Shown here one piece after another: positions 1,129 to 57,420 of a stretch of DNA of 64,000 nt. How positions within the stretch are numbered: position 1 is the stretch's first letter; every line of letters starts with the position of its first letter. The position numbers and the translations under genes are program-made. The DNA is taken from assembly GCA_000165345.1 (NCBI GenBank), contig CM000436.1, positions 1,088,001 through 1,152,000 on the forward strand. The letters are read 5' to 3'. The notes under the pieces were generated by a model, which was not told where the DNA came from, did not search any database, and saw only the letters and a program-made list of their open reading frames with translations.

Positions 1129-1848
1129 ATTCAAACAATTTTCAAAAAATAAAGGGGAATTTTGTAATTTTATTGATGGGATATACTGAAATTCCCAATA
1201 AGCTGTATATAAACATATCTCATTGCAGCATTAATTATTATTGCTATAGTAAAATATCGTTCAGTTCAGATTCGCACAAGCTCTCAAATAGAACTCAAAA
1301 ATCTGCAATATACTAATCAATATACAGTCACCAAAATTTTTGTGGGCTCACTTGACAATTTAAATTATTGAAATATCTCTTTCATCAAAATTGCCAGCTT
1401 TCTTTTTCATTAACTTTTATCAAGGATTCTTTAAGAACTGTTAAAAAAAATGCGCAGTTCCCGCCAAAAGTGCCCGCCACACATAATATGGCAAATAGGG
1501 ACTAAAAAATGGTGGGAGAATAAATGTTAAGGGGGGCAGTTGGAGGTAGTTGAATACAAAATTTAATGGAAGTCAAGGAAAAAATTGGAATAGCGAATAA
1601 TTTAAGAAGGAAAATAGACAAAAATAGGTTAGAAACCCTATTAGAAACTATTGGTTTATAAAGATCATATACAAGTAATTGTTGAGGAAATTTAAAGAAG
1701 AAAGAATCAAGTGTTTGGTTAGAGTGTGGAAACAACGGAATAATTATCGGAAAGTAGTAATATTTGATGCAAAAGAGGAAATATATGTGTGAGAATATTG
1801 AATGCTGATTAGAGTGAAGTTGGTAGAGTTTTAAGTGTCGGAGTTGGT

Positions 1849-4800
1849 ATGTTGAATTCTGTGGATGTTGATAAATCAGGTAGATTTGGAATATTTAGTA
1901 GGAAGGATGTTTATATATATAATTTAGATAGATGGAAAGATAGAATAGATGATGGGCTAGAATTTATTAAGGTAGATAAAGGAAAGAAGATAGGATTAAA
2001 GAAGTCTACAGAAGCAAGTAGTAACCTTAATTCAATTTTTATGGATGAATATGACCATAATAGTTCTAAGTATCCTGAAATAGTAAAATTTGGAACTCAT
2101 CCAAGTATGTATGGGAATTTCATAAATATTCAAGGGAATTTAATACTATATGGAAGTTTGGAAACTATTGGACTGGATTGTATTTCAACTCAGATGATGA
2201 ATATCAGTTCTTTTGACTGGAGTCCTCATTTTTCAACAGGTACTTTTGTAACAAGTTGTGAGGATGCGTTAATAAGAGTCTCAGATATAAGGAGTAAAAG
2301 TCTAGACTTATCATTCATGTCGTTCTATAATACAAATTGCATTAAATGGAATCCTTTAAATTCTTATTTAATAGGAGCTTTACATGAAAATGGAGAATTT
2401 TTAAGTATTTATGATCTTAGAGTTTTAAAGTCTACTGGTATAATATCTAGAAATCAGTGGCTAAATGATAATTTGAAAAGAAAGGAGAGAGAGACAAGAG
2501 GTAGAGAAAAGGGTAATACCGAATTTACATGGTTACCATTATCATCAGATAAAGTTTTGATTTCCGAAACAGATTATTTATGTATAATTGATTTTAAAAT
2601 AGCTATTGAAAGCTCTAATACAGCTTATAATAGTATTGCAGATTGTAATAATAATTTAAGAGTTAGAAATGGAGCACAATATATATCATTAACAAATCCT
2701 AATATTTCTCCAGATTTTGAAATACTCAACTTTTCATCAAGTTCGGTTGAAGAGGATGATGAACTAGGAGAGGATGAAGGTAATAGCTTAATGAATCAAG
2801 GTCATACTCAAGTTGATACAGAAATGGATATTCAGGATTTAAACTGGAAGAATAGAACAAATATAAAGGTTAATACATTTGATTTTTTACCAGGAACAAA
2901 TGATCTAATAATTAATGATAAAAATGGAAGATTCTACTTTAGTGAAATCAAATATAGCGATGATTTGGAACTTAAAAAGCTTAAATTAAAATATAGTGGG
3001 CCAGTAAAGAGAATTTTTTCAAGAGAAAATAATGGACTAACAGTTTTTGGAGGATTAAAAGCAGCAAGTCACTCAAGTATTAGTTATTTTGAAAGTGAAG
3101 AAAAAAATATAAAATATGATTTTTATGCAACTTCTTTACCACAAATAAATAATAAAAGAAATACTACAGAAGATGAAAAATACAAAATGTCAAACTTGAC
3201 ACTTCAAAGCTTCTGTTTGGACTGGTTTTATAGAGATTTGAATATGATCTATGAAAAAGTAAAGTTAAACCAACAAATGGCAAATAATCTAATATCAATT
3301 TCTATTGAGTCAAACGAAAGGATTATAGCAAAACTTTCAAGACATCCATCATTACGTGGGAAATTTGTAATGGAAGATAATACAAATCTTAATTTAGTTA
3401 TTGATTCTTTTGAATTTACAATAATTTTAACAACACAAAAAAATAATATTAAAGCTACTTATTATTTCACTAATAATACAATTCTCTTAATTAAAGAGAT
3501 TTTTTCATATCTTTCTATTATTGAAAAATCAGAATTAAATATTAATTCATGTGGACAAGAATTTAAAAAATTACAAAATTATGACTACACGTCACTAAAT
3601 TATTTGCATGTAAAAGAAAAAAATTACATGCAAAATTTAATACCGGTAAGAGTTTATGTGGATAATATAATATTGAATGGTAAAGAGAGAGAGAAATTGT
3701 GTGAATTATTTAGAATAGAACTTGATAAGGAATTATTAATATCATTATTTAATGAAACAGTGATAAGTAATAAAGCTCAAGTATCAAAGCAATTAATAGA
3801 TTGGGTATGGATTATTTCTAGTTTACCAGAATTAATATTTGGATTATTAATTCAAAATGATGGATCAAAAAAAGAACAACAATTAGAGTTAATATCATCA
3901 ACTAGAAAGCATGTATATGGGATAGGATTTGAACAACATGCAATAGTTGGTGAAAATTATGAGAAAAAAGCAAGAATTTCATTTACATTTAATACATTAG
4001 ATAAATTGATCATATCTCAAGGAAATTATTTAGTAGTAATGAAAGTGAATAATGAGGATGATTGGAATAGAGCTACAAGGTATGAGAATATATTGATTGA
4101 GATTAATGAAATGTTAAGAAAAGTGGAATATATTTCAGAGGAAAGGTTCTTATATGGAGATTATTTTAAATATGCATATGTACTATTTAGTTGGCTAACA
4201 AGAGTTTTATATAAGCAAAATAGAAGACGTAGTGTCAAGGATATACAGAATTTTAGTATAGATCCAACCAATATTGAAGAAAATTCAAATTTGAGTATGA
4301 TGTTATGTCCGACAGTTGTTCACTCATATTTTAAGAATAAAAGTGATGCTAATACATCTAGAAGACAGTTTGACCATATAATTGATTCTGTTACTCCTAT
4401 CACATACAAGTTTAATTTAACTTGTTCTAGTTCATCATGTTTTGATCAGATTGATAAAACAAAGCTTTTTATTTTACTAAAGAAATTATATTTGGAAATT
4501 AAAAATAATTATGATGCTAGAATTTTGGTGGTGGCTATTCAAAAGCTTTCAAATCATATAAAGAGAACCGAAGATTGGTATAAGTTAAAAAATGATTCAA
4601 AAATGGGATTAGGAAATCGATTAGAAGGAATGGGAGCAAATGAACTCATTTCAGAGTTGGAGTTGAATCCAGTATCATTATCTGAAATACAAAGAGGAGG
4701 AATAATATCAGATAATAATGGTTCAATTTTAGCTCATTCTGTTTCACCTTTTCCCTTGGATTTGACTTTATATTCAGAATATAAATCTACTCAAGTACTG

Positions 4801-4977
4801 AAACTTGCATCAGAAGCTTGCAGTATTTGTTTGGAACCAGTTTTTGGTCTTTATACACGTTGTATAAGTTGTAAGCATGGAGGTCATATAAAGCATATTA
4901 AAGATTGGTTCGAGGATAGGACAATATGCCCTATGGTAAACTGTAAATGCAAATGCGTCCCGGAAGAATGGAAGTAG
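1849..4977 (+). CDS. 1042-aa protein with an N-terminal WD40 region and a C-terminal RING-like zinc finger (CSICLEPVFGLYTRCISCKHGGHIKHIKDWFEDRTICPMVNCKCKC). The best fit is a GATOR2/SEACAT WD40-RING subunit of the WDR24/WDR59/MIOS/Sea family.
   Basis: Uninterrupted ORF starting at an ATG. The C-terminal C-x2-C...C-x2-CGHGGH-x2-H...W...CP-x2-C-x-C-x-C pattern is the signature RING-like tail of GATOR2 WD40 subunits. WD40-like motifs occur near residues 100-200. Confidence 0.5.
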   Translation: MLNSVDVDKSGRFGIFSRKDVYIYNLDRWKDRIDDGLEFIKVDKGKKIGLKKSTEASSNLNSIFMDEYDHNSSKYPEIVKFGTHPSMYGNFINIQGNLILYGSLETIGLDCISTQMMNISSFDWSPHFSTGTFVTSCEDALIRVSDIRSKSLDLSFMSFYNTNCIKWNPLNSYLIGALHENGEFLSIYDLRVLKSTGIISRNQWLNDNLKRKERETRGREKGNTEFTWLPLSSDKVLISETDYLCIIDFKIAIESSNTAYNSIADCNNNLRVRNGAQYISLTNPNISPDFEILNFSSSSVEEDDELGEDEGNSLMNQGHTQVDTEMDIQDLNWKNRTNIKVNTFDFLPGTNDLIINDKNGRFYFSEIKYSDDLELKKLKLKYSGPVKRIFSRENNGLTVFGGLKAASHSSISYFESEEKNIKYDFYATSLPQINNKRNTTEDEKYKMSNLTLQSFCLDWFYRDLNMIYEKVKLNQQMANNLISISIESNERIIAKLSRHPSLRGKFVMEDNTNLNLVIDSFEFTIILTTQKNNIKATYYFTNNTILLIKEIFSYLSIIEKSELNINSCGQEFKKLQNYDYTSLNYLHVKEKNYMQNLIPVRVYVDNIILNGKEREKLCELFRIELDKELLISLFNETVISNKAQVSKQLIDWVWIISSLPELIFGLLIQNDGSKKEQQLELISSTRKHVYGIGFEQHAIVGENYEKKARISFTFNTLDKLIISQGNYLVVMKVNNEDDWNRATRYENILIEINEMLRKVEYISEERFLYGDYFKYAYVLFSWLTRVLYKQNRRRSVKDIQNFSIDPTNIEENSNLSMMLCPTVVHSYFKNKSDANTSRRQFDHIIDSVTPITYKFNLTCSSSSCFDQIDKTKLFILLKKLYLEIKNNYDARILVVAIQKLSNHIKRTEDWYKLKNDSKMGLGNRLEGMGANELISELELNPVSLSEIQRGGIISDNNGSILAHSVSPFPLDLTLYSEYKSTQVLKLASEACSICLEPVFGLYTRCISCKHGGHIKHIKDWFEDRTICPMVNCKCKCVPEEWK

Positions 4978-6085: not shown

Positions 6086-6099
6086 TTCCCGCCAAAACC
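6086..6099. promoter_or_regulatory. E2F-like box TTTCCCGCCAAAAC, about 120 bp upstream of the eIF2-beta start.
   Basis: Matches the E2F consensus TTTSSCGC(C)AAA. It is a GC-rich island in an AT-rich spacer. A 10-bp palindrome ATACGCGTAT lies at 6333-6342 in the same spacer. Confidence 0.4.
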
Positions 6100-6663
6100 A
6101 AATTTTTTTTCAAGAAAATATTTCTTTAGTTTTGGTTTACAAGTCTGAATTATTATTTCTTCTCTTGCTTGAATCTTTTATCATTTACCCATACTCTATG
6201 AGCTAACTATTATAGTTAATTTGTTTATAATATATATTGTAAACAAATTAATTCCAAGAATCTATATAACTGCTTTTCCTTAACTGCAAACTCCCCCAAC
6301 AAATTTTTCCATTTCAAATATATATTGTTTTAATACGCGTATTGTACACGCATTTTTTAAAAAACTCTTTAAATAATTACTAAATTCTATTGTTCTAGCG
6401 GAATGGTATACCATTTGTTATTTAGAGAGAAAAAAAGAGGAGAAAAAGTTAAATAAATATAATTACTATAAAATTTGATTTGATGGTTGCTTCTATAAGT
6501 ATTCTAATATTAATTATTCTTATTTCTACAAATTTCTATAAAGTTTAGCCATATTGATTTCCTTATACAACTTTTATATTATCTTTTCTTTCAACAATTT
6601 TTGTTGATTACTTCTGTTAATTTCATTAATATCACCTTATAATTACACTCACCCGTGTGCGAA

Positions 6664-6736
6664 GGGGAACTAGCTCAGATGGTAGAGCGCTCGCTTAGCA
6701 TGCGAGAGGTGATCGGATCGATGCCGGTGTTCTCCA
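6664..6736 (+). tRNA. tRNA-Ala(AGC): tRNA-Ala, anticodon AGC, 73 nt.
   Basis: The acceptor stem GGGGAAC pairs with GTTCTCC, including the alanine-identity G3:U70 pair. The A-box is TAGCTCAGATGGTAGAGC. The anticodon loop is CTTAGCATG. The T-arm is GGATCGATGCC. There is a discriminator A and no intron. Confidence 0.9.
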
Positions 6737-6737
6737 C

Positions 6738-6742
6738 TTTTT
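6738..6742 (+). terminator. Pol III terminator T-run (TTTTT) immediately 3' of tRNA-Ala.
   Basis: Five T residues begin 2 nt after the discriminator base. An E2F-like box CTCCCGCCAAT follows at about 6745-6755. Confidence 0.6.
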
Positions 6743-8854: not shown

Positions 8855-8950
8855 CAAAAAGTCAAATTTGACGAACAAACCTTTTCCTCTTAAAAAATTA
8901 TACTACCTAAAATCTTTAGGCGCCAACCCTACTTTTTTTTTTTTTCCTCT

Positions 8951-9005
8951 TACGTGGCACCGGTATTTTAGAAAACAATTAATAATTTACATGCATGTAA
9001 GCTTA
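8951..9005. promoter_or_regulatory. Composite element CTTACGTGGCACCGGTATTTT ... CATGCATGTAAGC, upstream of the acyltransferase-family gene.
   Basis: It contains an ACGT-core box (TACGTGG), the ACCGGT palindrome and GCATGCA. The same elements recur at 12023-12064 and 39666-39690. Confidence 0.4.
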
Positions 9006-9351: not shown

Positions 9352-9548
<197 letters not shown>

Positions 9549-12008: not shown

Positions 12009-12064
12009 TTTGGCGCCTAGTACACGTCATGTGGGGAGAAACCGGTACTATGCACAAGCATGCA
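12009..12064. promoter_or_regulatory. Module TTTGGCGCC - ACACGTCATGTGGGGAG - AACCGGTACT - GCATGCAT, about 420-480 bp upstream of the 9644-11587 gene.
   Basis: E2F-like half site, ACGT box, G-box (GTGGGGAG), ACCGGT palindrome and GCATGCA clustered within 56 bp. Confidence 0.45.
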
Positions 12065-12528
12065 TATAGATTGAAATTTGGGCGGGTATTGAACAAAATG
12101 ATTTTTTTTTTTCTTATTAATTCAGAGATACAGAAGAGGGTAAGAAGTTAAATAAGAATTGGAAAGAATAGAAAAGATTAGATTTTTTAATTTCCGATTA
12201 AAAAGAATGTATTAATTCCACAATAAATTATAGAATTTAAATTTGAATTAGTAATGCAAGTAAATGGATCTATTTCATAAATTGTATCATAAATTTTGAG
12301 TAAAAATGGGTATAGCTGTTTAATCCTTTTCCTCTTCTATTTTGAAAGTCACAATGATTGTAGTGATAGAAAGATACTTCAAATTGAAAAAAAAGATTTT
12401 GAATAATTACTATCCTTACTAATTTTTTTTTCTTTTCTACCAATTTATTATATTTAACTATTTTTCCCAATTTACCTTCAATTCTATTATTTATCTTTCT
12501 ATTCAATAAAAACTCCTATAAGTCTATT

Positions 12529-12566: not shown

Positions 12567-12921
12567 CTCAAATTTAATAAATCTGTTAATTTTGAATATA
12601 AAATTTGCAAGTTAAGTGTTTAGCTGAGCGTACGAATATTTTATAATTTTGAAGATTACGCTTGAAGAAAATTGAAATATATAAAGGGAGAGAAAAGGAA
12701 AGCATTGGGGAGAAAAAAAAAAAAAAGACCGAATGCTAAGATAAAAAACAGTTTTGAAATAAAATTCTAAGAATATCCGTAAATGCCTTCAATATATTTA
12801 TTAAAGATATGTGCAATTGGATAAGCCATTAACTTGCATAATTTTTTATTTGAAATTTATTCCAAAAGTGACGGCAATAGTATTGAAGATAGGTGGGGAC
12901 TCAAGTAGACAAACAAAATGT

Positions 12922-12947
12922 CCGGCGCCAAATGTGTTGGCGGTAAA
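12922..12947. promoter_or_regulatory. CCGGCGCCAAATGTGTTGGCGGTAAA, about 260 bp upstream of CNOT9. It has paired E2F-like sites.
   Basis: GGCGCCAAA plus an inverted TTGGCGG. Preceded by GGTGGGGAC at about 12893. Confidence 0.45.
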
Positions 12948-14756: not shown

Positions 14757-14816
14757 ATGGCGCCTTATTTGCCCGCCAAACAGCGGGAACATTGTTTGGT
14801 ATTTTTAGGGGGGAAG
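14757..14816. promoter_or_regulatory. ATGGCGCC - TTGCCCGCCAAAC - AGCGGGAAC ... TAGGGGGGAAG, about 150-190 bp upstream of Sec24.
   Basis: Three E2F-type SSCGC cores in both orientations, plus a G-run. Confidence 0.45.
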
Positions 14817-18030: not shown

Positions 18031-18104
18031 CACGTAAGAATCAAAAAATTTCCCGCCCATTCGTGTAAAATTTGACTTGCATGCATACATTTAGATGAGG
18101 GGAG
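18031..18104. promoter_or_regulatory. CACGTAAG ... TTTCCCGCCCA ... TTGCATGCATA ... GAGGGGAG, about 300 bp upstream of the 18380 gene.
   Basis: ACGT box, E2F-like box, GCATGCA and G-box in the same arrangement as other spacers. Confidence 0.45.
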
Positions 18105-20378: not shown

Positions 20379-20414
20379 TGGCGCCGGCGCCAGGCATGTA
20401 ATATTTGGGGTCCA
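20379..20414. promoter_or_regulatory. 14-bp GC palindrome TGGCGCCGGCGCCA, then GGCATGTAAT and TTTGGGGTCC, about 300 bp upstream of the 20705 gene.
   Basis: Two overlapping GGCGCC E2F-like cores. The identical 14-mer recurs at 41743-41756. Confidence 0.45.
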
Positions 20415-23304: not shown

Positions 23305-23356
23305 TGCATGCACATTATCAAATATTTGAACTGGCGCCACTCTTTGGCGCCAACCG
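23305..23356. promoter_or_regulatory. TTGCATGCAC ... CTGGCGCCAC ... TTTGGCGCCAACC, upstream of the PI 4-kinase gene.
   Basis: GCATGCA plus two GGCGCC E2F-like palindromic sites. Confidence 0.45.
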
Positions 23357-27147: not shown

Positions 27148-27300
27148 TACCTTTCATTTACACTTGTATCGCTATTAATGATACAGGAATATTTCTTTTC
27201 TTTTAATAATAATAATAAAATCTAAAATATAACCTTATATTTTTATTAATTATTTCTCTCTTTAAATAAAATTCACTCTTTTTTCAACTATTATCCACAT

Positions 27301-27361
27301 GACGTCATTTTTATTGCATGCATGCAGTGGCGCAAATGATAACAATAATTTGACACGTAAT
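27301..27361. promoter_or_regulatory. Module GACGTCAT - TTGCATGCATGCA - GTGGCGCAAA - GACACGTAAT in a convergent (3'/3') spacer.
   Basis: Same element vocabulary as the upstream modules, but located between the stop codons of the PI4K gene (27147) and the 27525-30761 minus-strand gene. Confidence 0.4.
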
Positions 27362-27524
27362 TATATTTATTAAATGTTAAATAACAGACATTACAAAACA
27401 CGGAATGAAAAGAAATTAAAAAAAAAATCATTAATATCCAATGCTAGTACTATCTATATTAGATACAAAACATGCAACCTATCCAATTAATTGTGAAACT
27501 AATTTGTGAGCAAAAACGAACCCT

Positions 27525-30761: not shown

Positions 30762-31325
30762 TATAAAGTATTATATAATAATTTATAAGTAGAATAGGTT
30801 GTTATGTGTTTAGATATCTTATTATTAAGCAAAAACAAGCAGTTGGATTAATTAAAATTGCCAATAATGTTTGTTTCTGCTCTTAACTGCTCCAAGTAAT
30901 TTTTGACTACACTCTCACTTTAAAAACTTTAAAGTGAGACCGTGCTTTATGAAACGGAGAGTCTCTAGTTACTTGTTCTGCTTTTCTGTGTACTTTTTTT
31001 TTTAGTATAAGAAAAAATAAATCACATATATTTCTTATGTAATAAATTAATTTTATTCCTACTTCCCACAATACTTTAATTTCTCTCCAACCCTATTTTT
31101 CCTCTAGTCTTAATTTATTAATAATATAGCTAATATTATACATTACATTATAATAAATAATTATTATTAATAGACCTATATATATTTAATTATTTACCTT
31201 TTATTATTATTATTATTATTATTACTATTCAAATTATTTATTTGAAGTCAAACTTAGCTTTTTCCATATATTATATTTAAAATTGTCTAAACTCGGCCGC
31301 CTCTTAATATTTTCTAATTTTAAAA

Positions 31326-31439
31326 TTACCGCCAAAAATTAACAAACTCTTTAATCATTCTATTCTTTCAACATTTTCCCGCTCAAAATAGTCGAATTGT
31401 TAAATTTTACAAAAAAAAATGCATGTTTTCCCGCCGTCT
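31326..31439. promoter_or_regulatory. Cluster of three E2F-like boxes (TTACCGCCAAAAATT, TTTTCCCGCTCAAAA, AAATGCATGTTTTCCCGCCGTC) in the divergent spacer between the 27525-30761 gene and the small 31760 gene.
   Basis: Direct sequence matches to TTTSSCGC. Confidence 0.45.
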
Positions 31440-31759
31440 CAAAAGATTACTTTAATATGAAATTTAATGAAAAATGATGAAAAGTCAAAATAATGAGCGA
31501 TTAACAATAAATAAAAATTGAGAATGGAACAGAATAAATATTTAAAAATATTTAGTTTTCTTTTTGAAGAAATTTCTTAGTTTTTTTTTTTCAAAAATTA
31601 TATTTGTCTGTTTTGTTTTAAAGCCGGTATAGGAATACATGTATGCATGTAATTGAATAGATTTGTGTGTATTTGCATTTGAGTAATTATTTTTCTAAAT
31701 TCATTGAATATTTTTGTGAATATTTTTAATTAAAAAATTCTTAAATACTTTATTGGAAA

Positions 31760-32515: not shown

Positions 32516-35500
32516 TTAAATAATACTAGCTTTGATAATTTCAGAAATTTCCATCCTTTCATGATTACTAATCATATTTGAAAGAATATTAGAATTGTTT
32601 GAGTTACCAGAAAATAATGGTAAGAGTCTTGAAACAATATATTTGTTATTCAAGTGGAATATTAGAAATTTAACTGGCCAAACCCACCAAAGTACTCTAG
32701 ATTTAACTTGAGTTACATCTTCAAAATCGTAAATGTCAACAAGATCATTCTGTCTGAACCTATTATAATACAAAATAGAGAACTTATAAAGTTCTAATAT
32801 AATTGTTTCCAAAATTGAATCAAATTGCTGAAGAGATACTCTGAAATTCATTCCGCTTCTAATACTTTGATTATTTTGATTGATAATGAGATCATAGGGC
32901 ATAGAATTCTCACATAATCGTAATAGATCAGCTATATCAACCTCGAATAATATCGGAGATTCAAAGAAAAATGCTTGTTTAGTTCTGTATTCACATAATG
33001 ATGGAATTTTAATAATGATATGGTTTATAATTCTTGGTTGATTTTTTGAGTTTTCCATCAACCATTTAATTTCTGTAATAGATGAAAAGCCTGTCAAATT
33101 GTAAAATTCTGTAATAAATTCTAGTAAAGTTTCATCATTATGAACCATACTTTGGATATGGAAGATTCCCATAATCAAGCTTTTGAATATATCAATTCCT
33201 TCTTGAGAAATATCAACATTTTCATTTAAATGTGAGACTTCAATATTATTACCAACAGAAGTAGCAAAGATATCAAAAATTTGTTTGACTAGTGGATTAA
33301 TATTAACGTTTTGCTCTAATGCTGAGAGAATATAGTAATTAATAAACTCTGCAATCTGTAACAATATCTCTATCTGTGTATCTACATTAAAGATATCGTT
33401 TCTAATACTTTTAATAAATTCCTTATTCTTATCATCATTCATGTCTCTCTCAATACAAGTTTGAGATTGCAATAATAATGATCTTCTTTGAATTAATGTG
33501 GGATCTTGTTGCATTTTCAAAACCTGCAAGTGTATATCAGACAATAAATCAAAAATATTTTCAAGCCTTTTCCCACCTTGGATGAAACTTGAGCTAGAAA
33601 CTCTTCTTTTGTAATTCTCAAGGCTTTTTTTCATAAAATCTTGCATTTTAACGATTTCATCATTATTTACTTCTTTAAGTATAGTTGAAGAGCTCAAATC
33701 CTTCCCCCTTGAAACCGACTTTAATACATCTGATTGAGTTCTTAAAATCATTGAATTCACTCCAGGAGTAATTTTCCACAAAGCTCTAGACTTTGAGTAG
33801 TAATATTGACCAGCAGAAAGGTATTGCTTAGCATTATAAAGCAGATAACCCTGATCTTTCTTAAGATTATTTTCATTGTTGTAATTGTTAGAAATCAGTG
33901 CTAAACTATTATTTACACTTGGTTGATCATTTTCTAATTTATTAGTAAAATTATTGCTATATCTTTGCTTTGTCAACAAACCAGCTGTAGTATTGTCAAA
34001 ACTACCAGAAGTTTTAGTATTATTTATTAACCCTGGACTCTTTTGTTCTTTATTTTTATTACCTTTAATACTATATCTGTGGGTATCATTCAAATGAAAG
34101 TGCTCCAACCAATTCTTTAAATAAATTGAGTGCTCACTAAATTGAAATACTGATATACATAAATTCTTTATTAGCCAATTTTCCAATCTATCCCCGCCTT
34201 TTCTGCTAACTATTTCTTCATGTACCGTTTTTTGCATGCAAGAATCAATATATGACACGTAAGAAAATAAATAATAGTGGAGCCATTCTTTGCATGTGGA
34301 CAAAAATGATTTTTGGCTTTGTTTATTGAATTTTAAATTGTAATTGGACTCTTGTTGTTTAAGTCCGCAAAGAATGAATTCAATGATAGATGATTTTTTT
34401 TTAAGAATATTTTCTCTGTGATTTTTAAACGCAGAGAGTCTATCTTCAAGAAGTTGCTTTTCAGAAGCTGTGTTTGTATTTTTCAAATGATTGAATGAAA
34501 CATCTAGTTCTCTAAGATAGTCAAAAGATGGGTCATCGACAAGATCAACTTTTGAAAGGAACATTTCAATTTCCACGATATATTCACTATAAATTATATC
34601 CAAGGTATGTTGAAGATTTTGGTAAATCCATAGAGAACAATGGAATTCATAAGTATAAATGGATCTGACAGCATGGGTTATTGAAGAAGTTTTGCAGAAT
34701 TCAAGTAAAGTTTTGCACCCGCTTTGTTCGAAATTTACTATTATATCTTGAAAACTCATCAGCCTGTTGTTATATTGAGGCTCGCATTGATTGATTTCAA
34801 AAAGTAGAATAGAAAGGAAGTATTTAATGAAAGAGTTTGACTTTGAAATATGACTAGAAAATTCCGAAATTGAAGATGGAATGTGTATTTCAACTTTTTC
34901 TCCATTTGAAAGCCAAGGAGGTAGGAGTCCTGTATGATGAATGTATTCAGATTGGGAGTTAATTAGAGTAATAATGGATGGAATCTCCTTCTTGTAATAT
35001 AAAAGGCTCAAAACAATATTCAATGGTACCTCATAAATATTTTCAAATAAAATGGACATTATCTGTGGATGTGATGAATTCCCATGTTGTTCATTACCTT
35101 TGACTTTAGGTCTAGATACGCGAGTTAGGTTCCTACGAGCCAAAAAGTTCTCATTGTGAGATGCTTTATTTCTTTTGTTAATGATTACATCCTTATTTAA
35201 GGAAGATATGCTGTGCTCAATTGCAACCTGTTGAGATGTGATTAAAGAATATTTCGAATTTGATGGGATTGCAGACATATATTGGGATGCCGAAAGAATG
35301 TTATATCTGAATAATAGACGAAGAATAAATTGGAGTCCTTTATTATTTGATAATTCAAATAGTGTAAATTTCGTCAGTGATTTCTTCAAAATATCCATAT
35401 AAGTAAAACATAAAATTGCTTCGTTTGTTATCCTGGCATTATATTTCAGTCCAAGTGGATAAGTCTTACAGAAAAGATTCATCATTTCCAAAATTTCGAT

Positions 35501-39184: not shown

Positions 39185-39615
39185 CAGAAATTAAATCAAT
39201 TAATAACAATAATAGTTATTTGAAAAGTTGTTTTTCTTCTTTATTCTTATAAAGAATGTAAAATAATTATGGTTATTAATTAATAATTACTTAATTTCCC
39301 ACCCTTTTTACTAATAATATTCGGTAATTATTTCATATCCAATATAATATATTATCAAAATAATAATAATAATAATAATGGCGATACTTTTCTTTTTAAT
39401 TTGTTGGGAAAAAAAAAGGATAAATCTTGAATAAAAAAGAATTAACAAGTTTTTTTTTTTATCAATACAATTTAATTAATATTTACATATACATTTGGCA
39501 ACTTTTTAATCAATGGATTTCTTAATATTTTTTTTAAAGAAAAAAAGAATATTATTATGGNAACTTTTTTTTTCTCAAATTATTTATATTGATTTAATTA
39601 AATATATAAGCATAA

Positions 39616-39690
39616 ATGACGTGGGGTTGCGCGCGCAAATTATATTTTGAATTATAATATATATATACCGGTATCGTTATTACGTGGTAC
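39616..39690. promoter_or_regulatory. Module ATGACGTGGGG - TTGCGCGCGCAA (12-bp palindrome) - TACCGGTATCG - TTACGTGGTACC, about 430-500 bp upstream of the Nup155-like start.
   Basis: ACGT box fused to a G-box, a perfect GC palindrome, ACCGGT and a second TACGTGG box. The TACGTGG and ACCGGTA pair also occurs at 8951-8970. Confidence 0.4.
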
Positions 39691-41742: not shown

Positions 41743-41780
41743 TGGCGCCGGCGCCATCTGTCATGCGGACACGTAATAAA
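41743..41780. promoter_or_regulatory. TGGCGCCGGCGCCA (14-bp palindrome) - CATGCGGACACGTAATAAA, about 280-320 bp upstream of Sof1.
   Basis: Second exact copy of the 14-mer seen at 20379-20392, followed by a CACGTAAT box. Confidence 0.45.
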
Positions 41781-41975
41781 TTTTTTTTAAAAATTACTAA
41801 ATACATGCAATACTAAAAAATAAATAAATAACAATCGTAATGAATCATCATAAATTGACAATATTAGATATATAAATTAATAATTTAAGTTTCATATAAA
41901 TAAATTAAATTGGATTTCTGTTGGTGAATATTATCGTAGAAATGAGTTGAAATATAATTGATGTAGTTATTAATA

Positions 41976-44776: not shown

Positions 44777-44790
44777 TTTTCCCGCCTTTT
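44777..44790. promoter_or_regulatory. E2F-like box TTTTCCCGCCTTTT upstream of the 41976-44336 gene.
   Basis: Direct match to TTTSSCGC. The palindrome TGTGCGCACA lies at 45049-45058 on the other side of the divergent spacer. Confidence 0.4.
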
Positions 44791-45276: not shown

Positions 45277-46580
45277 ATGGTAATTAATGAAAAAGGAAAA
45301 AAAGAAAACAATAATGAAATATCACCTAAACATAAATTATCAGATCTTTGTTTATTGGATTTATCAAGGGAAACATCATCTCTTCAATTACCAAATGCAT
45401 TTAGTAAATTAATGTCAATTAGTAAACAGTTACAAAATGAATTAAAGCTAACAAGAAAAGAAAGAGATGATGCCTACAACTCTTTAATTCTACAGAGGGA
45501 TTACTATGAACAGTCAGTGGGGTGTCCAATGAATAATGATAATGGTAGAAATGAAATAGTAAGTTAAAAATTTTTATATTTACCTATTTATAATTGAATC
45601 AATGAATTTGAACTAAAATATTTGAATTTGAATTAATTTTAGTTAGAAAAGTTGCTTAATGATACAGCTAATATTGAATATAGGGCAGAATTGAATAATT
45701 TAAAGAGAGAATATGAAAGAAAGGTAAGTAATTCAATAAGGAGACAGAAAATATTGCAATAATGATTAAACCTTATGTTTTTGAATAATAATATTGATAA
45801 TTTTTCTGTCATTATTCCTTGTTTATTTATTATTTTTTTTATATATAACTTTGATAACTATTGATTAATAAATAAATAATTAATCATTACTTTAGATTTT
45901 TGAAATGGAAAAGGAATTTGAAGAAGAAAGTAAGACATTAAAAACACAAATTTTGAAGGATGTAGAGATTTACTTGGCTAAATATAGAGATTTAGCAATG
46001 TTAGCAACAGAAGAAGCAAAAAGACAGCAAAAAAAGGCAGAATTAATAAAGTTAAAAACAAGAGAATTAACAGAAATAACATGTAAATCTTTTGAAGAAA
46101 AGCTACGTAGTAAAATGCAAGAAGATTTGAAGAAATACGAGGAGGCTACTCAATCAGCATATTCAAAAATGATTTTGAAGGAAAAATCTATGAATATTAA
46201 ATGGAATGAAAGGGAAAAGTTTATTGAAAGAGAAAAGAAGGATTTCGAAAAATCGATATTAAAGCAAGCAGAAAAAAGAATTGAAGAATTTAGAAGAGGG
46301 TTAATGACAACTCAAGCACAATTAAATAAAGAAAGAGAAATATTCGAAGATATGATGGGAAATTTGAGGGAAAGGGTAAGTTATAAATTAATTATGAATA
46401 TTAAAATATTTTTTTTTTTCATTTTAAAATTATACCAATTTATTAGATTTCCTCTGAATGTGCTGAATTTGAAAAAGAAATGTATCATAGGTTTGCTGTT
46501 ACATTCAGTTTGGATGAAAATGAAGTCTCAAGAAGAATGCAAAATTATAATGATGCATTAGAAAAGAAAGGTATTAATTA
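45277..46580 (+). CDS. Multi-exon coiled-coil protein in four exons, approximately join(45277..45558,45643..45723,45896..46375,46447..46580). Function unknown.
   Basis: ATG at 45277. Donors are GTAAGT at about 45559, 45724 and 46376. Acceptors are ...TTTTAG, ...CTTTAG and ...TATTAG. The ORF-track pieces 45277-45567 and 45905-46561 are exons 1 and 3. The product is rich in E/K/R heptads. Confidence 0.45.
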
Positions 46581-46684
46581 ATTAAGATATTTATTATAGA
46601 AATTTATAGTTTAATTATTTATATATTCAACAAAAAATTGTAAAAATTTTTTCTAATCATTTTCTTTTGTCAATTCTATTCAAT

Positions 46685-46827
46685 ATTACGTCATTATTAC
46701 GTCATTGTAACGCCAGAGATATTATTTAATTAAAAAAAAAATTCGTGTGAATTGCATGTAAATTTGTTTATTACAATAAATAACCTTATAATAAATAGGT
46801 GAGGGGCCAAAAAGTTACCGCCAAAAC
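46685..46827. promoter_or_regulatory. Tandem ATTACGTCATT x2 at 46685-46706, then GCATGTA, GTGAGGGGCC and TTACCGCCAAAAC. This is the upstream region of the TMEM147-like gene.
   Basis: Duplicated ACGTCA box, a G-box and an E2F-like box within about 140 bp. Confidence 0.45.
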
Positions 46828-47600: not shown

Positions 47601-48160
47601 TGCTTTATGACCTATAATGTGCAACAATAACTGCAATAAGTAGCTGCTGCTGGATTCAGCCCTTTACATTGGGACTATAAAGCATGGAAGGCATAAATAA
47701 TATCGCTCCTTTTATTAATCATCCAATATCTAGCTTTATTGGCATACTATATCAACTTGAACTTTAATCGAAAGAGAGAAACAATTTCTAACAATAAAAA
47801 AGAATAATTCTAGTTATATAACAATTATTTCTATTTTACTTTATTTTATTTTATTTTTCTCCCATTATTTTTCTTCTTTGTATATTATTTATATTATTTA
47901 TAACACGTAATATATTGTTTTGTTAAACTATTTTGATAATTTACACAAATCAACCTTGAAACTTTGCATATTTCAAAATTTTCTAGTTGTTCATCGACCA
48001 AAATTTAATCACTAAATTATGAAATTCTTATTATTTATTCGAATTCCCCTCATTTTGTTTTCAATTAGTAGAAAACTTAAAGATAATACTAAATTAATAT
48101 GAACATGTAATTTATTCCCAAAAATTAAAATATAAATTATTATTATTATTATTACCTCTC

Positions 48161-48188
48161 CTCATGCATGCAATTCACACGTAATAAT
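48161..48188. promoter_or_regulatory. TCATGCATGCAATT-CACACGTAATAATT, overlapping the stop codon of the 48175-49599 gene in a convergent spacer.
   Basis: GCATGCA followed by CACGTAAT. Same pairing as at 27315-27361 and 41763-41780. Confidence 0.4.
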
Positions 48189-49599
48189 TGACTCTAAACT
48201 CTTTAGAACTAATATCATCACTAGGAAGAGGATCAATAATATGATTTCTTGAAAATCCAACAAAGAACCAAATTATATTTGAAGTTAAAAATAATAAAAA
48301 GAATATTCCAATACTACATGGAATAGAAACAGCAGGATCTGCAAAGTTAATAGCTGAGTAAATAAAGCCAAGATCATCTTGAGATTGTGGATTTGGAAGC
48401 TTAAGAATAAAGTAAACAATTGTAAAAATCAGGTATATTAAGCAATAAAGGAATGAATAGAATGCTTGAGAGATAAAAAATGGTATTGTAGTAAAATAAG
48501 TATCTAGTGAAAGTAAAATTGCTGTTAAACCATGTTTATTAAAAGTTAAGAAAGAGAAACCATCAACTCCAACAGGTGATATTATACTCATTGACCAATA
48601 AACAATGGAAACAATGAAAGATGCTGGTAATGCAATTGCATGAAATACCCACATAAGTCTAATTAATAATGGTAAATTAATATTTGTTGTAGTATTATCC
48701 ATTCTTTGGTTAATTTCATCAGCAAAATGTGGTCTGTCTGTTTCTTTGCAATATTTTATAATAAACATATGAGATTTTAAATGATTGTAATATCTTACAA
48801 AAATATTTCTTGTCTTTCTGGGTATAATATATTCATTATTTCTTTCAGTATTATTTTTTATTGCATTCTTATTTAAATTTTCAGGCGATTCAAAAGCTGT
48901 CGAAATTGAAACAATACTTGCATGACCATAAGAAGCTTCTTTATTTTTATTACTATTATTATTTTCAAGATTTAAATCAACCATTTGAATTTCGTTTAAT
49001 TGTGCATTTTTTGGACTACTTGAGTATCCATTAGTTGTATGATCTGATACAACAACTTGTTCATTATGTTTTGAAGGGTTAATATGTTCAAATTTTCGAT
49101 CTAAAATATTTAATATGGAACCACGTGGTCTAGAATTGACATTTTGATGACCAATAATATCATCATCAAGTTTTAAATGAATTCTTCCACCAATTGATGG
49201 ACTATTAGTCATTTTCAAAGACTTTATATACTTTTTTCTACCAAAAGAGTTATTTGCATATGAATATATAGTTGAAGTTGTTGCAAAAAAATAGTAAATA
49301 ATTGTTATAGCATAAGTCCAATTTGTAACATATACACCCCAGTACATAGCATATCCTAACTTATAATAATTAGATACATCCAATCCAAGCATAATAAGTA
49401 GATATAGAAAAACAGATAGTCTAAGGTAAATCAAAAACCATTGTGGAATAATCCAAGAACAGTTAAAGTGATTAGTTTGTTCAAATTCATCAAAAGTGAA
49501 TGTGATTCTATTAATAGCTCTACTTAATTTATACTCCCATATAAATCTATGTAAAATTAATTTCCATCCTCTTTTAATATTTTCTGAAACATTCACCAT
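48175..49599 (-). CDS. Polytopic membrane protein of about 474 aa. Function unknown.
   Basis: Long ORF with many hydrophobic helices. The ORF-track start at 49617 is a TTG codon. The first ATG (MVNVSENIKR..., plus-strand CAT at about 49597-49599) is used here. Confidence 0.5.
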   Translation of the reverse strand: MVNVSENIKRGWKLILHRFIWEYKLSRAINRITFTFDEFEQTNHFNCSWIIPQWFLIYLRLSVFLYLLIMLGLDVSNYYKLGYAMYWGVYVTNWTYAITIIYYFFATTSTIYSYANNSFGRKKYIKSLKMTNSPSIGGRIHLKLDDDIIGHQNVNSRPRGSILNILDRKFEHINPSKHNEQVVVSDHTTNGYSSSPKNAQLNEIQMVDLNLENNNSNKNKEASYGHASIVSISTAFESPENLNKNAIKNNTERNNEYIIPRKTRNIFVRYYNHLKSHMFIIKYCKETDRPHFADEINQRMDNTTTNINLPLLIRLMWVFHAIALPASFIVSIVYWSMSIISPVGVDGFSFLTFNKHGLTAILLSLDTYFTTIPFFISQAFYSFLYCLIYLIFTIVYFILKLPNPQSQDDLGFIYSAINFADPAVSIPCSIGIFFLLFLTSNIIWFFVGFSRNHIIDPLPSDDISSKEFRVNYYV

Positions 49600-50169
49600 T
49601 TTTTTTTTTGTTTTCAATTCAAATTATATATTACGACACTTCCTTGCTGAATACAATATCTTATTTAATATTTACTATAAGTTATATTTTATCTTACTTT
49701 TCACACAGTATCAATTAAGATCTTCTTAAACTTTAATTCTGTATTAGTAATAATTGATTTAGTATTATTTCAAATTAGTTTTCTTTTTAAACTGTTTTTA
49801 CAGTTTAATAATAAAAGAGATCTTAATTAATGAATTGTGGAATTCTAATTACGATAATGTATCTACAACGGAACTCTGAAATGAGATATTTCCTGGTACT
49901 TTTTATTTTTAATTACATACAGTATTGTCGAGGGTGATCAATGTACACTTAAATATTTTTACCTTTAAAATTCAAAGTAATACAAACCTAATTTTTTTTA
50001 ATTAGATCTGAGGACACTCAAAAACTTGTTCATTCCATCAAAAAGAAATGTAATAGTAATCAAATAGTATATTTAAATACTCATTTGATTACTTCTAATC
50101 GGTTCTCTTTTCTATTATTATATTAATCTAATTAATACTTCACACTTTCAATTATTTACCACCTCGATA

Positions 50170-50245
50170 TTTACCGCCAATTCCCCCCTTAATTTTTACA
50201 CCCTTGAAATTAATATTGAATTTAATCACATTGGCGCCAAATTTT
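50170..50245. promoter_or_regulatory. TTTACCGCCAATT ... TTGGCGCCAAATTTT in the divergent spacer between the 48175-49599 and 50927 genes.
   Basis: Two E2F-like boxes. The second is a perfect TTGGCGCCAA palindrome. TGTGGGGAAATGGG lies at about 50294. Confidence 0.4.
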
Positions 50246-50926
50246 CCAAATTGTTATTGTGGACAATTATTAACAGATAAAATAGAAAATAATTGTGGGG
50301 AAATGGGTAAATGATAGTATAAATAATAAAACTATTACAGCTAAAAACTTGTTACAATTTATTTGCTTGATTTTTTTTTGTCATCTTTCTTTATGAATAG
50401 TTAATGCAAATATCTTTTTGAAATATTCATAAGTTCTATTATTATTATTTTTTTTTTTAAGAATATGGAATTAAAACTAATGGGTGCAGTTGCATGCACT
50501 AAATTTATTTCAATAATTTCTCAATTAGATTTTATTTGTAAATTATTGGATAGTTTTATGAATAGTTTAGTTATTCATTAATTTAATGATTAATTAAATA
50601 GTATAAAAGCTTTTAATTATTGAATAATTTTGTTGTTTTATATGAGAAAAAAAATTGCTGTATTTGATCTTTAGTGGCGTATAATGTCTTTGTGAAAATG
50701 TTAATAAGTGATTATTTGAAAATAATTGAAAAAATAAACTTAGAAAAATTTTAATAAAAAGTTGAGTAATTGATATTTTCTTCTAGTATGAATGTATGTT
50801 ATAAGCTCATTTAAGTAAAATATATTAGGGTAAAAAGTGAGTATTGGTCAATTTTAATATTTTCCTTTTTAAGATTAAATAAAATATATTAATAAGAAGG
50901 AAAAAAAAATTTAAATCAAAAGAAAG

Positions 50927-52553: not shown

Positions 52554-52648
52554 GTGGGGATATTCTTTCTCTCTTTTCATGCGCATTAATTAAATTATTT
52601 TTTCCAGGGTTTAAACTATTCAACCTGGCGCTCAATTTTGCATGCCCT
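52554..52648. promoter_or_regulatory. TGTGGGGATA ... CATGCGCATT ... CTGGCGCTCAATTTTGCATGCCC, about 100-180 bp upstream of the 52732 gene.
   Basis: G-box, GCATGC-type element and E2F-like element. Confidence 0.4.
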
Positions 52649-52669: not shown

Positions 52670-52701
<32 letters not shown>

Positions 52702-55556: not shown

Positions 55557-55599
55557 TTGGCGCCAGACTTTGTTTCTACTAATAATAATGTGGGGAATT
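55557..55599. promoter_or_regulatory. TTGGCGCCAG ... TGTGGGGAAT in the divergent spacer between the 53438 gene and the Nudix gene.
   Basis: E2F-like GGCGCC core plus a G-box. Confidence 0.35.
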
Positions 55600-56415
55600 C
55601 CTAGTAAAAAAAAAAAATAATNTATNATAAAATAAAATTTGAATAATAATAATTTTTATATAAAATNAATGATTTTCTATAAGAGTNTTTGATTAANTTT
55701 TATTACATTTCCCTATTAAAACTGGTGTAGATTTTTCTAATTGAATGATTTTTTTTTGTTTTGGTTTAATTTAAAAGATATATATATTTGTGTATCTATT
55801 TATAGATTTATTTATAATTTTAATATTTAAATTAATTTATGAGGTTTTTTTTTGTTTTATTAATATAATTTTGATTAAATATTTTAAAATTAATTTTCCA
55901 GTTTTAAATTTTCTATTTTCTAGATGTTTTCTGCATGCATTGCATGCATTTTTATATATTTATAATTTTTCGTGTGGACGAAATTTTAAGTTTATATAAA
56001 AGTAAAATTTTAAAGAAAAATAATAGAAGATATTTGAGTAATATAATTAAAAAAAAATTGTTTTGATCAAACAAAATAATATTACAATTCATATTAATAA
56101 ATTCTTTTTTCTTCTTCTTTTTTCTCTTTCTAATTTCTTCTTATTTCTTAATATTATCGATTAAGAAAATACTACATATACATAAGAATTAAAATTGAAA
56201 TTAAAATGATTGATAATTTGAATTTGAGTTGAGTTAAGGTTTACATTTTATAATTTTCTTAATAAATGGAAAAAGAAAATAATCAGAATAAAAAGAATAG
56301 TCGAGTTGAGTTAATAAAAGAAAGAGAAAGAAAGAGAATGGAAGAAAGAAAGAGAGTGAAAGTCGTTATATTTTGAAAATAATTAAATACAAATAATTTA
56401 ATATTATTTAAAATA

Positions 56416-57039: not shown

Positions 57040-57364
57040 TTTTTTTTTTTTTCTTTTTTTTTTCTCCTGTTTCAAATTTTAATTCTAACTTTTCCTCTCA
57101 ACACATATTATTACAAAAACAATAGGAATTCACTGGAACATTGAAATCAATTCACTAAATATTAAAAGAAAAGATTGTAATTGAATAATAACAAAATCTA
57201 CCAGCTAAAATAGAACAATTATAAATCATTATATTACTACCATTAAAATATTGATAATCAACTAACTTTCCCAAAAATAATCCCAACTTTATCTAAATAA
57301 ATTTCCATCATTTTTTCATCAAATTATTCTTATATTCTAAATGCAGTAATTAACTATTATTTAT

Positions 57365-57420
57365 CCACATAAATGTGCGTGCATGCATGATGGCGCTCAT
57401 GTAAAAAATGACGTGTTAAA
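57365..57420. promoter_or_regulatory. GTGCGTGCATGCATGATGGCGCTCATG ... AATGACGTGTTAAAA in the convergent spacer between the Nudix and SNF2 genes.
   Basis: GCATGCA, a GGCGC core and an ACGT box (ACGTCA on the other strand). This is the third convergent-spacer instance. Confidence 0.4.

What the first reader, a model, noticed from the sequence alone, without database searches (positions are those of the whole stretch)
1458..57420. A recurring GC-rich cis-element grammar punctuates almost every AT-rich spacer
Short GC-rich islands are embedded in the 75-85% AT intergenic DNA. They reuse the same few words: E2F-like boxes, GCATGC(A), ACGT-core boxes, GTGGGGA-type G-boxes and ACCGGTA. These are usually clustered within 30-110 bp, about 100-500 bp upstream of start codons. 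In divergent spacers there is one cluster per gene.

E2F-like TTTSSCGCC boxes and GGCGCC palindromes occur at 1458, 6086, 6745, 12009, 12922, 14757-14790, 18049, 20379, 23331, 23344, 27328, 31326-31439, 41743, 44777, 46815, 50170, 50231, 52626 and 55557. GCATGC(A) occurs at 8990, 12057, 17800, 18077, 23305, 27315, 48161, 52579, 52640, 55930 and 57375. ACGT-core boxes occur at 8951, 12023, 18031, 27301, 27352, 39616, 39679, 41770, 46685, 47905, 48175 and 57408.

This matches the E2F-like, G-box and GCATGCA motif classes reported as over-represented upstream of Cryptosporidium genes. The genes here are a constitutive, growth-related set. The pattern suggests a simple shared promoter code.
Basis: partly seen in the sequence, partly recalled or inferred. 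Interest (0 to 1): 0.6.

Follow-up and report, generated by a model that had tools for sequence, protein, structure and literature searches.

The report
Known Cryptosporidium promoter motif clusters
The short GC-rich word clusters between genes in this Cryptosporidium parvum chromosome 8 segment are real, non-random and conserved across species, but three of the five words (E2F, GCATGCA, G-box) were already published for this very genome; two further words may be undescribed.

Summary
The window is C. parvum Iowa II chromosome 8 (exact protein matches).

- **Enrichment.** Against dinucleotide shuffles of the spacers, E2F-like boxes occur 22 times versus 0.39 expected (TSSCGCC). GCATGCA occurs 21 versus 0.64, GTGGGGA 6 versus 0.22, CACGTMA 9 versus 0.53 and ACCGGTA 4 versus 0.17. 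Densities are 4-28 times those in coding DNA. A bare ACGT core is not enriched.
- **Clustering and position.** Median nearest-neighbour distance between sites is 26.5 bp versus 92 bp at random. About 73% of sites lie 100-500 bp from the nearest ATG.
- **Conservation.** Sites are retained at orthologous positions in C. sp. chipmunk genotype I, C. ubiquitum and C. canis or C. felis in 59-82% of comparisons, versus 0-21% for control words.

Published work explains three words: E2F/DP sites, the ApiAP2 site TGCATGCA and the G-box (Oberstaller 2013, 2014; Xiao 2025 ATAC-seq).

- Three clusters lie in 3'-3' spacers.
- One "E2F box" abuts a tRNA-Ala gene.
- Short divergent spacers hold one central cluster, not two.

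Additions:
- ATKACGTG (bZIP-like) and WTACCGGK are absent from the published 25-motif table.
- Similar multi-class clusters sit inside two long coding regions.

Verdict: real, but already known.

The parts
1458..1481 (.). Two E2F-like boxes (TTCCCGCCAAAA, GCCCGCC). They form a single central cluster in a 720-bp divergent spacer.
6086..6097 (.). E2F-like box TTCCCGCCAAAA, 118 bp upstream of the eIF2-beta ATG. It is kept in 6 of 7 species.
8919..8997 (.). Cluster E2F (GGCGCC) - TTACGTGG - CACCGGTA - CATGCATG upstream of the acyltransferase gene. Order and spacing are kept in 5 intestinal species.
12009..12089 (.). Cluster E2F - CACGTCAT - GTGGGGA - ACCGGTA - GCATGCA - E2F in the divergent spacer, on the side of the minus-strand gene 9644-11587.
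12893..12947 (.). Cluster G-box - GGCGCC - GGCGGTAA, about 270-300 bp upstream of the Rcd1/CAF40 ATG.
14757..14793 (.). Three adjacent E2F-like boxes, 167-192 bp upstream of the Sec24 ATG.
18031..18089 (.). Cluster CACGTAAG - TTTCCCGCC - TTGCATGCA upstream of gene 18380-20020.
20379..20392 (.). 14-bp palindrome TGGCGCCGGCGCCA (two abutting E2F cores), 326 bp upstream of the ATG at 20705. It is identical in 4 species and is followed by a conserved block at 20405-20446.
23305..23354 (.). Cluster TGCATGCA - GGCGCC - GGCGCC upstream of the PI4-kinase gene.
27300..27362 (.). Cluster ATGACGTCAT - TGCATGCATGCA - ACACGTAAT in a convergent 3'-3' spacer. The ACGT and GCATGC words are kept in 4 species. 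There is no conserved E2F box.
31296..31440 (.). E2F boxes plus TGCATG-TTTTCCCGCC in the divergent spacer between gene 27525-30761 (-) and the small gene 31760-32488 (+).
31624..31652 (.). TACCGG - CATGCA pair, about 110-135 bp upstream of the small intron-containing gene at 31760.
39614..39688 (.). Cluster ATGACGTGGGG (ACGT box fused to a G-box) - GCGCGC - ATACCGGTAT - TTACGTGG upstream of the nucleoporin gene.
41743..41811 (.). Second copy of TGGCGCCGGCGCCA, then CACGTAAT and CATGCA, 281-342 bp upstream of the WD40 gene ATG. It is kept in 4 species.
44777..44786 (.). Single TTTTCCCGCC box in the centre of a 940-bp divergent spacer. It is kept in 4 species.
46685..46826 (.). Two TTACGTCAT boxes, then TTGCATG, then TTACCGCCAAAA (loose E2F), upstream of the DUF2053 gene.
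47904..48182 (.). CACGTAAT at 47904, and CATGCATGCA plus CACGTAAT at 48161-48182. They lie in and at the edge of a convergent spacer. The last box overlaps the stop codon of gene 48175-49599.
50170..50301 (.). TTTACCGCCAAT - TTGGCGCCAAA - GTGGGGA in the centre of a divergent spacer. A GCATGC follows at 50491.
52554..52646 (.). G-box - TGGCGC (loose E2F) - GCATGCC in a 221-bp tandem spacer.
55557..55950 (.). TTGGCGCCAG plus a G-box (55557-55598), and a tandem TGCATGCATTGCATGCA (55930-55950), in a 1691-bp divergent spacer. They are kept in 3-4 species.
57375..57424 (.). GTGCATGCATG plus AAAAAATGACGTGTTAAAAAAT in the convergent spacer between the NUDIX and SNF2 genes. The 22-nt ACGT block is identical in 3 species.
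3588..3650 (.).
34193..34296 (.).

Best explanation
These are clusters of transcription-factor binding sites that form the compact promoters of C. parvum genes.

Proposed mechanism:
- E2F/DP heterodimers bind the TTTSSCGC and GGCGCC boxes.
- ApiAP2 proteins bind TGCATGCA and the G-box G[T/C]GGGG.
- The ATKACGTG and ATKACGTCAT boxes have the hybrid half-site layout (TGAC, TTAC or CAC on either side of the central CG) typical of bZIP dimers.
- WTACCGGK has no assigned factor.

A 20-110-bp GC-rich cluster in an AT-rich spacer would mark the open-chromatin region where transcription starts. A single central cluster would serve both genes of a short divergent pair. Clusters in 3'-3' spacers and inside long ORFs most likely drive antisense or internal non-coding transcripts.

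Shown here: enrichment, clustering, position relative to ATGs, and purifying selection on the words.

Taken from the literature: factor binding (protein-binding microarrays for the AP2 domains; homology for E2F), and open chromatin with E2F motifs.

Inferred only: the bZIP assignment and the antisense-promoter role.
For: - Enrichment of 15-100-fold over dinucleotide shuffles, and 4-28-fold over coding DNA. The same holds in chipmunk genotype I, C. ubiquitum, C. canis and C. felis. For E2F it also holds in C. bovis and C. serpentis. Control hexamers sit at expectation.
- Sites are clustered, and 73% lie 100-500 bp from an ATG.
- Across 19 aligned spacers, motif positions are fully conserved at 61% versus 27% for other spacer positions.
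- Site retention at the orthologous position is E2F 0.82, AP2_1 0.65, ACGT 0.67, G-box 0.59 and CCGGTA 0.75. Control words give 0-0.21.
- An unbiased ranking of conserved 6-mers puts GGCGCC, CATGCA and CCCGCC on top.
- Word order and spacing are kept while the DNA between the words drifts.
- Literature: the E2F, AP2_1 and G-box families are over-represented upstream of C. parvum genes (PMC3734150). AP2 domains bind TGCAT and the G-box on microarrays (PMC4117751). Sporozoite ATAC-seq peaks are dominated by E2F motifs, and more than half are annotated as bidirectional (10.1101/2025.01.17.633476). Antisense lncRNAs start near the 3' ends of genes and have E2F and AP2_1 motifs within 100 bp upstream (10.1101/2020.09.19.304907).
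Against: - No transcription start sites, RNA-seq or chromatin data could be examined for this window, so promoter activity of any single cluster is not shown.
- The ATAC-seq study found no AP2 motifs in sporozoite open chromatin. The GCATGCA and G-box sites may therefore act only at other stages.
- The 3'-3' spacer clusters lack a conserved E2F box, unlike the published lncRNA upstream regions.
- Only 17 of 59 fully conserved spacer blocks carry a listed word, so the five words are not the whole code.
- Conservation fades in C. bovis and is mostly absent in C. serpentis, apart from E2F.
Confidence: 0.85

Rival explanations
1. The words are chance or compositional by-products of GC-rich patches in AT-rich DNA and have no sequence-specific role.
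For: Spacer DNA is 77% AT, so any GC-rich word stands out to the eye. The bare ACGT core is indeed at expectation, 14 vs 13.2.
Against: None of 300 dinucleotide shuffles reached the observed counts for the extended words. Control GC-containing palindromes are at expectation in every species. The exact words are retained across species while the flanks drift.
Confidence: 0.01
2. The GC-rich islands are small non-coding RNA genes, missed exons or repeat remnants rather than factor binding sites.
For: One island is a tRNA-Ala gene (6664-6737) that itself contains GCATGC. Another is a (TGAGCC)30 microsatellite. ORF scanning missed a small intron-containing gene at 31760-32488. Several longer conserved blocks without listed words exist.
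Against: Rfam at gathering threshold finds only the tRNA in 64 kb. The conserved units are 6-14-nt words separated by variable DNA, not 60-150-nt blocks. The same words recur at unrelated spacers, which RNA genes or exons would not explain.
Confidence: 0.04
3. The ACGT plus GCATGC clusters in 3'-3' spacers and inside ORFs act at the RNA level or on chromatin rather than as promoters. Examples would be 3'-UTR stability or processing elements such as UGCAUG, or boundary and termination elements.
For: These clusters lie 100-380 nt past stop codons, where 3' UTRs may still run. They lack the conserved E2F box present in every 5' spacer. ACGT-core boxes are about 5 times denser in convergent spacers than in 5' spacers. 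My estimate is 4 of 12 sites in 11% of the spacer length, binomial P about 0.03, from the positions.
Against: The same words in the same arrangement occur in 5' spacers alongside E2F boxes. The words are palindromic or occur on either strand with no orientation bias, which fits DNA recognition better than RNA recognition. Published antisense lncRNAs start near 3' gene ends and have AP2_1 motifs upstream.
Confidence: 0.15
4. The ATKACGTG boxes are bound by an ApiAP2 or other non-bZIP factor rather than by a bZIP dimer.
For: ApiAP2 proteins are the main specific factors in the phylum. C. parvum has 18-19 of them, and several domains gave no motif on microarrays.
Against: None of the reported C. 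parvum AP2 motifs (TGCAT, CACACA, G-box, GTGTGT) has an ACGT core. The observed set, TGACGTCA, TTACGTCA, TGACGTG and TTACGTG, is the classic mix of bZIP half-sites (established knowledge of the bZIP family, not tested here). Text searches at CryptoDB list bZIP proteins in C. parvum (PMC3734150, Table 2).
Confidence: 0.3

Closest known systems
E2F-like upstream motifs of C. parvum (Oberstaller 2013 motif 3 DTTGSCGCCH and motif 4 TTTGGCGGGAAV; E2F/DP winged-helix factors)
   Same: Same genome and same words (TTGGCGCCAA, TTTCCCGCC). They are the most widespread class here too, present in every 5' spacer, and they survive even in C. bovis and C. serpentis.
   Different: Nothing essential differs. 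New details here are site-by-site conservation across at least 4 species, and a 14-bp double palindrome TGGCGCCGGCGCCA present at two unrelated promoters.
AP2_1 motif TGCATGCA (ApiAP2 site; bound by cgd2_3490, cgd1_3520 and others on protein-binding microarrays; TRP-2 in Toxoplasma)
   Same: Same word, strongly enriched in spacers (21 vs 0.64 expected), and often next to E2F or G-box sites.
   Different: Here it also occurs, conserved, in 3'-3' spacers and inside two ORFs.
Apicomplexan G-box G[T/C]GGGG (bound by cgd8_810 and cgd2_2990)
   Same: GTGGGGA is enriched 6 vs 0.22 and retained in 59% of orthologous comparisons.
   Different: It is the weakest of the three known classes in this window. 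At 39616 it is fused to an ACGT box (ATGACGTGGGG).
bZIP ACGT-core sites (CRE TGACGTCA; plant G-box/C-box hybrids TGACGTG; PAR-type TTACGTAA)
   Same: The boxes share the ACGT core with TGAC, TTAC or CAC half-sites in mixed pairs, as bZIP dimers recognise.
   Different: No Cryptosporidium bZIP has a determined specificity. The word is not in the published C. parvum 25-motif table. The resemblance is by sequence only.
Antisense lncRNA promoters of C. parvum (Li et al. 2020 preprint)
   Same: Motif clusters lie near 3' gene ends and include AP2_1.
   Different: The published set is enriched for E2F as well. The three 3'-3' clusters here have no conserved E2F box. No transcript data were available for this window.

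Membership tests
C. parvum E2F-like upstream motif family | Sequence matches [C/G]GCGC[C/G] or GGCGGG with T/A-rich flanks. | tested here: met
   14 strict and 5 loose matches at 19 listed positions. The words match DTTGSCGCCH and TTTGGCGGGAAV.
C. parvum E2F-like upstream motif family | Over-represented in upstream non-coding DNA. | tested here: met
   TSSCGCC 22 vs 0.39 expected; 1.22 per kb in spacers vs 0.13 per kb in coding DNA.
C. parvum E2F-like upstream motif family | Bound by E2F/DP proteins and located in open chromatin. | not testable with these tools
   Published ATAC-seq peaks are enriched for E2F motifs. No direct binding assay for the C. parvum E2F/DP proteins appeared in the papers read.
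AP2_1 (TGCATGCA) ApiAP2 site | Palindromic core GCATGC or TGCATGCA, over-represented in non-coding DNA. | tested here: met
   TGCATGCA 9 vs 0.12; GCATGCA 21 vs 0.64. CATGCA ranks second among conserved 6-mers.
AP2_1 (TGCATGCA) ApiAP2 site | Bound by ApiAP2 domains. | not testable with these tools
   Published microarray data for cgd2_3490, cgd1_3520, cgd8_3230 and cgd5_4250.
Apicomplexan G-box | G[T/C/A]GGGG word over-represented upstream. | tested here: met
   GTGGGGA 6 vs 0.22; retention 0.59 vs 0-0.21 for controls.
bZIP ACGT-core element | ACGT core flanked by TGAC, TTAC or CAC half-sites, forming palindromic or hybrid 8-mers. | tested here: met
   10 instances of ATKACGTG and 3 of ATKACGTCAT. 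CACGTMA 9 vs 0.53.
bZIP ACGT-core element | A bZIP protein of the organism binds it. | not testable with these tools
   Only a text-search count of bZIP proteins in C. parvum is available.
Core promoter or bidirectional promoter | Lies just upstream of a mapped transcription start site. | not testable with these tools
   Only distances to ATGs are available: median 436 bp, with 73% of sites within 100-500 bp.
Antisense lncRNA promoter | An antisense transcript starts next to the cluster. | not testable with these tools
   No RNA data for the window. Position at 3' gene ends and the AP2_1 content agree.

The most novel reading that the evidence does not exclude
Two words of this grammar, ATKACGTG/ATKACGTCAT (a bZIP-type ACGT box) and WTACCGGK, may be real, conserved cis-elements of intestinal Cryptosporidium species that are missing from the published motif catalogues.

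Together with GCATGCA they may form an E2F-independent module. This module would mark transcription start regions in 3'-3' spacers and inside long ORFs (27300, 57400, 3588, 34193), perhaps for antisense or internal transcripts.
Probability: 0.3. Interest if true: 0.45.

Novelty: already known. Interest (0 to 1): 0.27.

Why it matters
Gene regulation in Cryptosporidium is poorly understood, and the parasite is the only apicomplexan genus known to keep E2F/DP factors.

This window shows the published motif families at single-site resolution. It also shows that they are under purifying selection across several species, which supports their function but does not change the picture.

The practical gain is small. 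There are two extra candidate words (ATKACGTG, WTACCGGK). There are also a few conserved E2F-less clusters at 3' gene ends and inside ORFs. Both could be checked against existing ATAC-seq, long-read and stranded RNA-seq data.

Tried and rejected
- **Order-3 Markov k-mer enrichment.** It was dominated by a (TGAGCC)n microsatellite and by poly-A and TA runs. It also absorbs part of the GC-word signal, so I used dinucleotide shuffles instead.
- **Bare ACGT core.** Not enriched, so it was dropped in favour of the extended words.
- **RNA genes as an explanation for the islands.** Rfam and ARAGORN found only one tRNA.
- **A conserved hairpin at 30929-30976.** The predicted pairs show no covariation, so it was not pursued.
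- **E2F proximal, GCATGC distal order relative to the ATG.** This holds in about 6 of 9 assignable spacers by my reading, which is too few to claim.
- **Orientation bias of ATKACGTG relative to the gene.** None was apparent by inspection.
- **Bankier et al. 2003 (chromosome 6 octamers).** The paper is not held in the library, so I could not check whether ACGT or CCGGTA words were listed there.

Full report
**What the window is.** The 64-kb window is 28.6% GC and carries about 23 eukaryotic genes. They include eIF2-beta, an acyltransferase, Rcd1/CAF40, Sec24, PI4-kinase, a nucleoporin, a WD40 protein, DUF2053, a NUDIX hydrolase and a SNF2/ISWI ATPase. Four of its proteins are identical to C. 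parvum Iowa II entries. The C. hominis orthologue carries a chromosome 8 locus tag. The DNA is 95-96% identical on average to four C. hominis assemblies. This is therefore the genome on which the published Cryptosporidium motif surveys were done.

I refined the ORF-based gene models using called genes in syntenic loci of seven other species:
- The WD40 gene runs 40003-41462 and is broken by some of the 41 Ns.
- A small intron-containing gene lies at 31760-32488 (+).
- One gene spans 45277-46581.
- DUF2053 ends at 47807.
- The SNF2 gene runs off the window end.

| Word | Observed | Expected |
|---|---|---|
| TSSCGCC | 22 | 0.39 |
| GGCGCC | 12 | 0.11 |
| GCATGCA | 21 | 0.64 |
| TGCATGCA | 9 | 0.12 |
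| CACGTMA | 9 | 0.53 |
| TGACGT | 7 | 1.19 |
| GTGGGGA | 6 | 0.22 |
| ACCGGTA | 4 | 0.17 |

No shuffle reached any observed value. Spacer densities are 4-28 times those in coding DNA, although the spacers are more AT-rich (23% vs 31% GC). Five control GC-containing palindromes are at expectation. A plain ACGT core is not enriched (14 vs 13.2), so only the longer words count.

Sites are clustered. The median nearest-neighbour distance is 26.5 bp against 92 bp for random placement, with 0 of 2000 simulations as tight. 73% of sites lie 100-500 bp from the nearest ATG. GC-rich 30-bp islands number 21 against 8.3 +/- 2.0 in shuffles, and 14 of them hold a listed word. By my count, every spacer that contains a 5' gene end has at least one E2F-like box (15 strict, 2 loose).

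**Are the words under selection?** Gene order is conserved in C. hominis, C. sp. chipmunk genotype I, C. ubiquitum, C. canis, C. felis, C. bovis and C. serpentis.
- In 19 aligned spacers (window, chipmunk genotype I, C. ubiquitum, plus C. canis or C. felis), motif positions are fully conserved at 61%. Other spacer positions reach 27%. The first eight spacers gave 72% vs 29%, Mann-Whitney P = 9e-28.
- Sites are retained at the orthologous position in 82% (E2F), 65% (GCATGC), 67% (ACGT boxes), 59% (G-box) and 75% (CCGGTA) of comparisons. Control words give 0-21%.
- Word order and spacing are kept while the DNA in between drifts. One example is GCATGC(-143) / CCGGTA(-111) / ACGT(-102) / E2F(-70) before the acyltransferase gene in five species.
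- The same words are enriched in the non-coding DNA of each intestinal species. In C. bovis and C. serpentis mainly E2F remains.
- Promoters that lie beyond the window edge in the other species show the same grammar.

**What it is.** The literature already explains three of the five words.
- Oberstaller et al. 2013 (PMC3734150) found E2F-like (DTTGSCGCCH, TTTGGCGGGAAV), AP2_1 (BGCATGCAH) and G-box (DTGTGGGG) motifs over-represented upstream of C. parvum genes. E2F was the most widespread.
- Oberstaller et al. [quoted passage not shown]
- A 2025 preprint (10.1101/2025.01.17.633476) reported that E2F motifs dominate sporozoite ATAC-seq peaks. [quoted passage not shown]
- A 2025 review tabulates the same families (PMC12246861).

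The best explanation is therefore compact promoters built from clusters of factor binding sites. Short divergent spacers (720 and 940 bp) hold a single central cluster, as expected for bidirectional promoters. Longer divergent spacers hold two or three.

1. The clusters at 27300-27362, 47904-48182 and 57375-57424 lie in convergent 3'-3' spacers. The first and third are conserved in 3-4 species and consist of ACGT boxes plus GCATGC, with no conserved E2F box. A 2020 preprint (10.1101/2020.09.19.304907) reports antisense lncRNAs that start near 3' gene ends with E2F and AP2_1 motifs upstream. That is the most likely role, but it is an inference, since no transcript data could be examined.
2. The "E2F box" at 6745 sits 8 nt after a tRNA-Ala(AGC) gene at 6664-6737. 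The anticodon arm of that tRNA also contains GCATGC.
3. "One cluster per gene" is only partly true.

**What is not in the published lists.** The ACGT boxes resolve into ATKACGTG (10 copies) and ATKACGTCAT (3 copies). These are mixed TGAC, TTAC and CAC half-sites around the central CG, the pattern bZIP dimers recognise. This assignment rests on general knowledge of bZIP proteins and is not tested here.

The second word is WTACCGGK, often the palindrome ATACCGGTAT. In the window, 3 of its 4 spacer copies lie within 20 bp of an ACGT box.

Neither word appears in the 25-motif table of Oberstaller 2013 or in full-text searches. I could not read Bankier 2003.

Two multi-class clusters also lie inside coding regions, at 3588-3650 and 34193-34296. 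That is 2 against 0.035 expected. Each falls in the most conserved 60-bp window of its gene across four species, with a modest z-score of 1.9.

Only 17 of 59 invariant spacer blocks carry a listed word, so other elements exist.

**Verdict.** It is already known for this genome. The modest new angle is the two extra words and the E2F-less clusters at 3' gene ends and inside ORFs. These need genome-wide and transcript data to confirm.

Noticed in passing
window 6664-6737 (+): A tRNA-Ala(AGC) gene lies in the spacer between the eIF2-beta and acyltransferase genes. An 80-nt block (6663-6742) is identical in 4 species. It contains a GCATGC in the anticodon arm, and an E2F-like box (TCCCGCCA, 6745) follows its T-run.
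   Followed up: yes
window 9359-9543: A hexanucleotide microsatellite (TGAGCC) of about 30 copies lies just downstream of the stop codon of gene 9644-11587. The four C. hominis assemblies have 4-6 copies. C. ubiquitum, chipmunk genotype I and C. canis have none. It may be a hypervariable typing marker or an assembly-sensitive site.
   Followed up: partly
window 39095-40700: 41 scattered N bases lie here. They break the ORF of the WD40 gene, which is 474 aa in orthologues and maps to 40003-41462 on the minus strand. They also put one X into the nucleoporin ORF.
   Followed up: partly
window 20379-20392 and 41743-41756: The same 14-bp palindrome TGGCGCCGGCGCCA (two abutting E2F cores) occurs at two unrelated promoters. 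Each copy is invariant in 4 species.
   Followed up: partly
window 3588-3650 and 34193-34296: Multi-class motif clusters (ACGT box, CATGCA twice, then CCGGTA or GGCGGG) lie inside two long ORFs. That is 2 against 0.035 expected. Each lies in the most conserved 60-bp window of its gene. They may be internal or antisense promoters.
   Followed up: partly
window 20405-20446; 30929-30976; 44841-44855; 49894-49950; 50665-50691; 8884-8911: Spacer blocks of 12-28 nt are invariant in 4 species and contain none of the five words (for example TTGGGGTCCAGTCCTGAC and TGATCTTTAGTGGCGTATAATGTCTTT). The block at 30929-30976 can be drawn as a hairpin but shows no covariation. Their function is unknown.
   Followed up: partly
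window 31760-32488 (+); 45277-46581 (+); 14950-17636 (+): Three intron-containing genes are missed or split by plain ORF scanning: a small gene (137 aa in C. ubiquitum and C. canis), a roughly 323-aa gene, and Sec24 (874 aa in C. hominis, split at about 16054-16172).
   Followed up: partly
window 19539-19981 and 30024-30287: Tandem repeats lie inside coding regions. One has periods of 18, 42, 63 and 84 nt in gene 18380-20020. The other has periods of 6, 12 and 18 nt in gene 27525-30761. The product of gene 18380-20020 varies in length between species and assemblies (505-648 aa).
   Followed up: no
window 63055-63191: Four E2F-like words and a GCATGC lie inside the 5' part of the SNF2 coding region. 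This stretch is 39% GC, so chance is more likely, and conservation was not checked.
   Followed up: no
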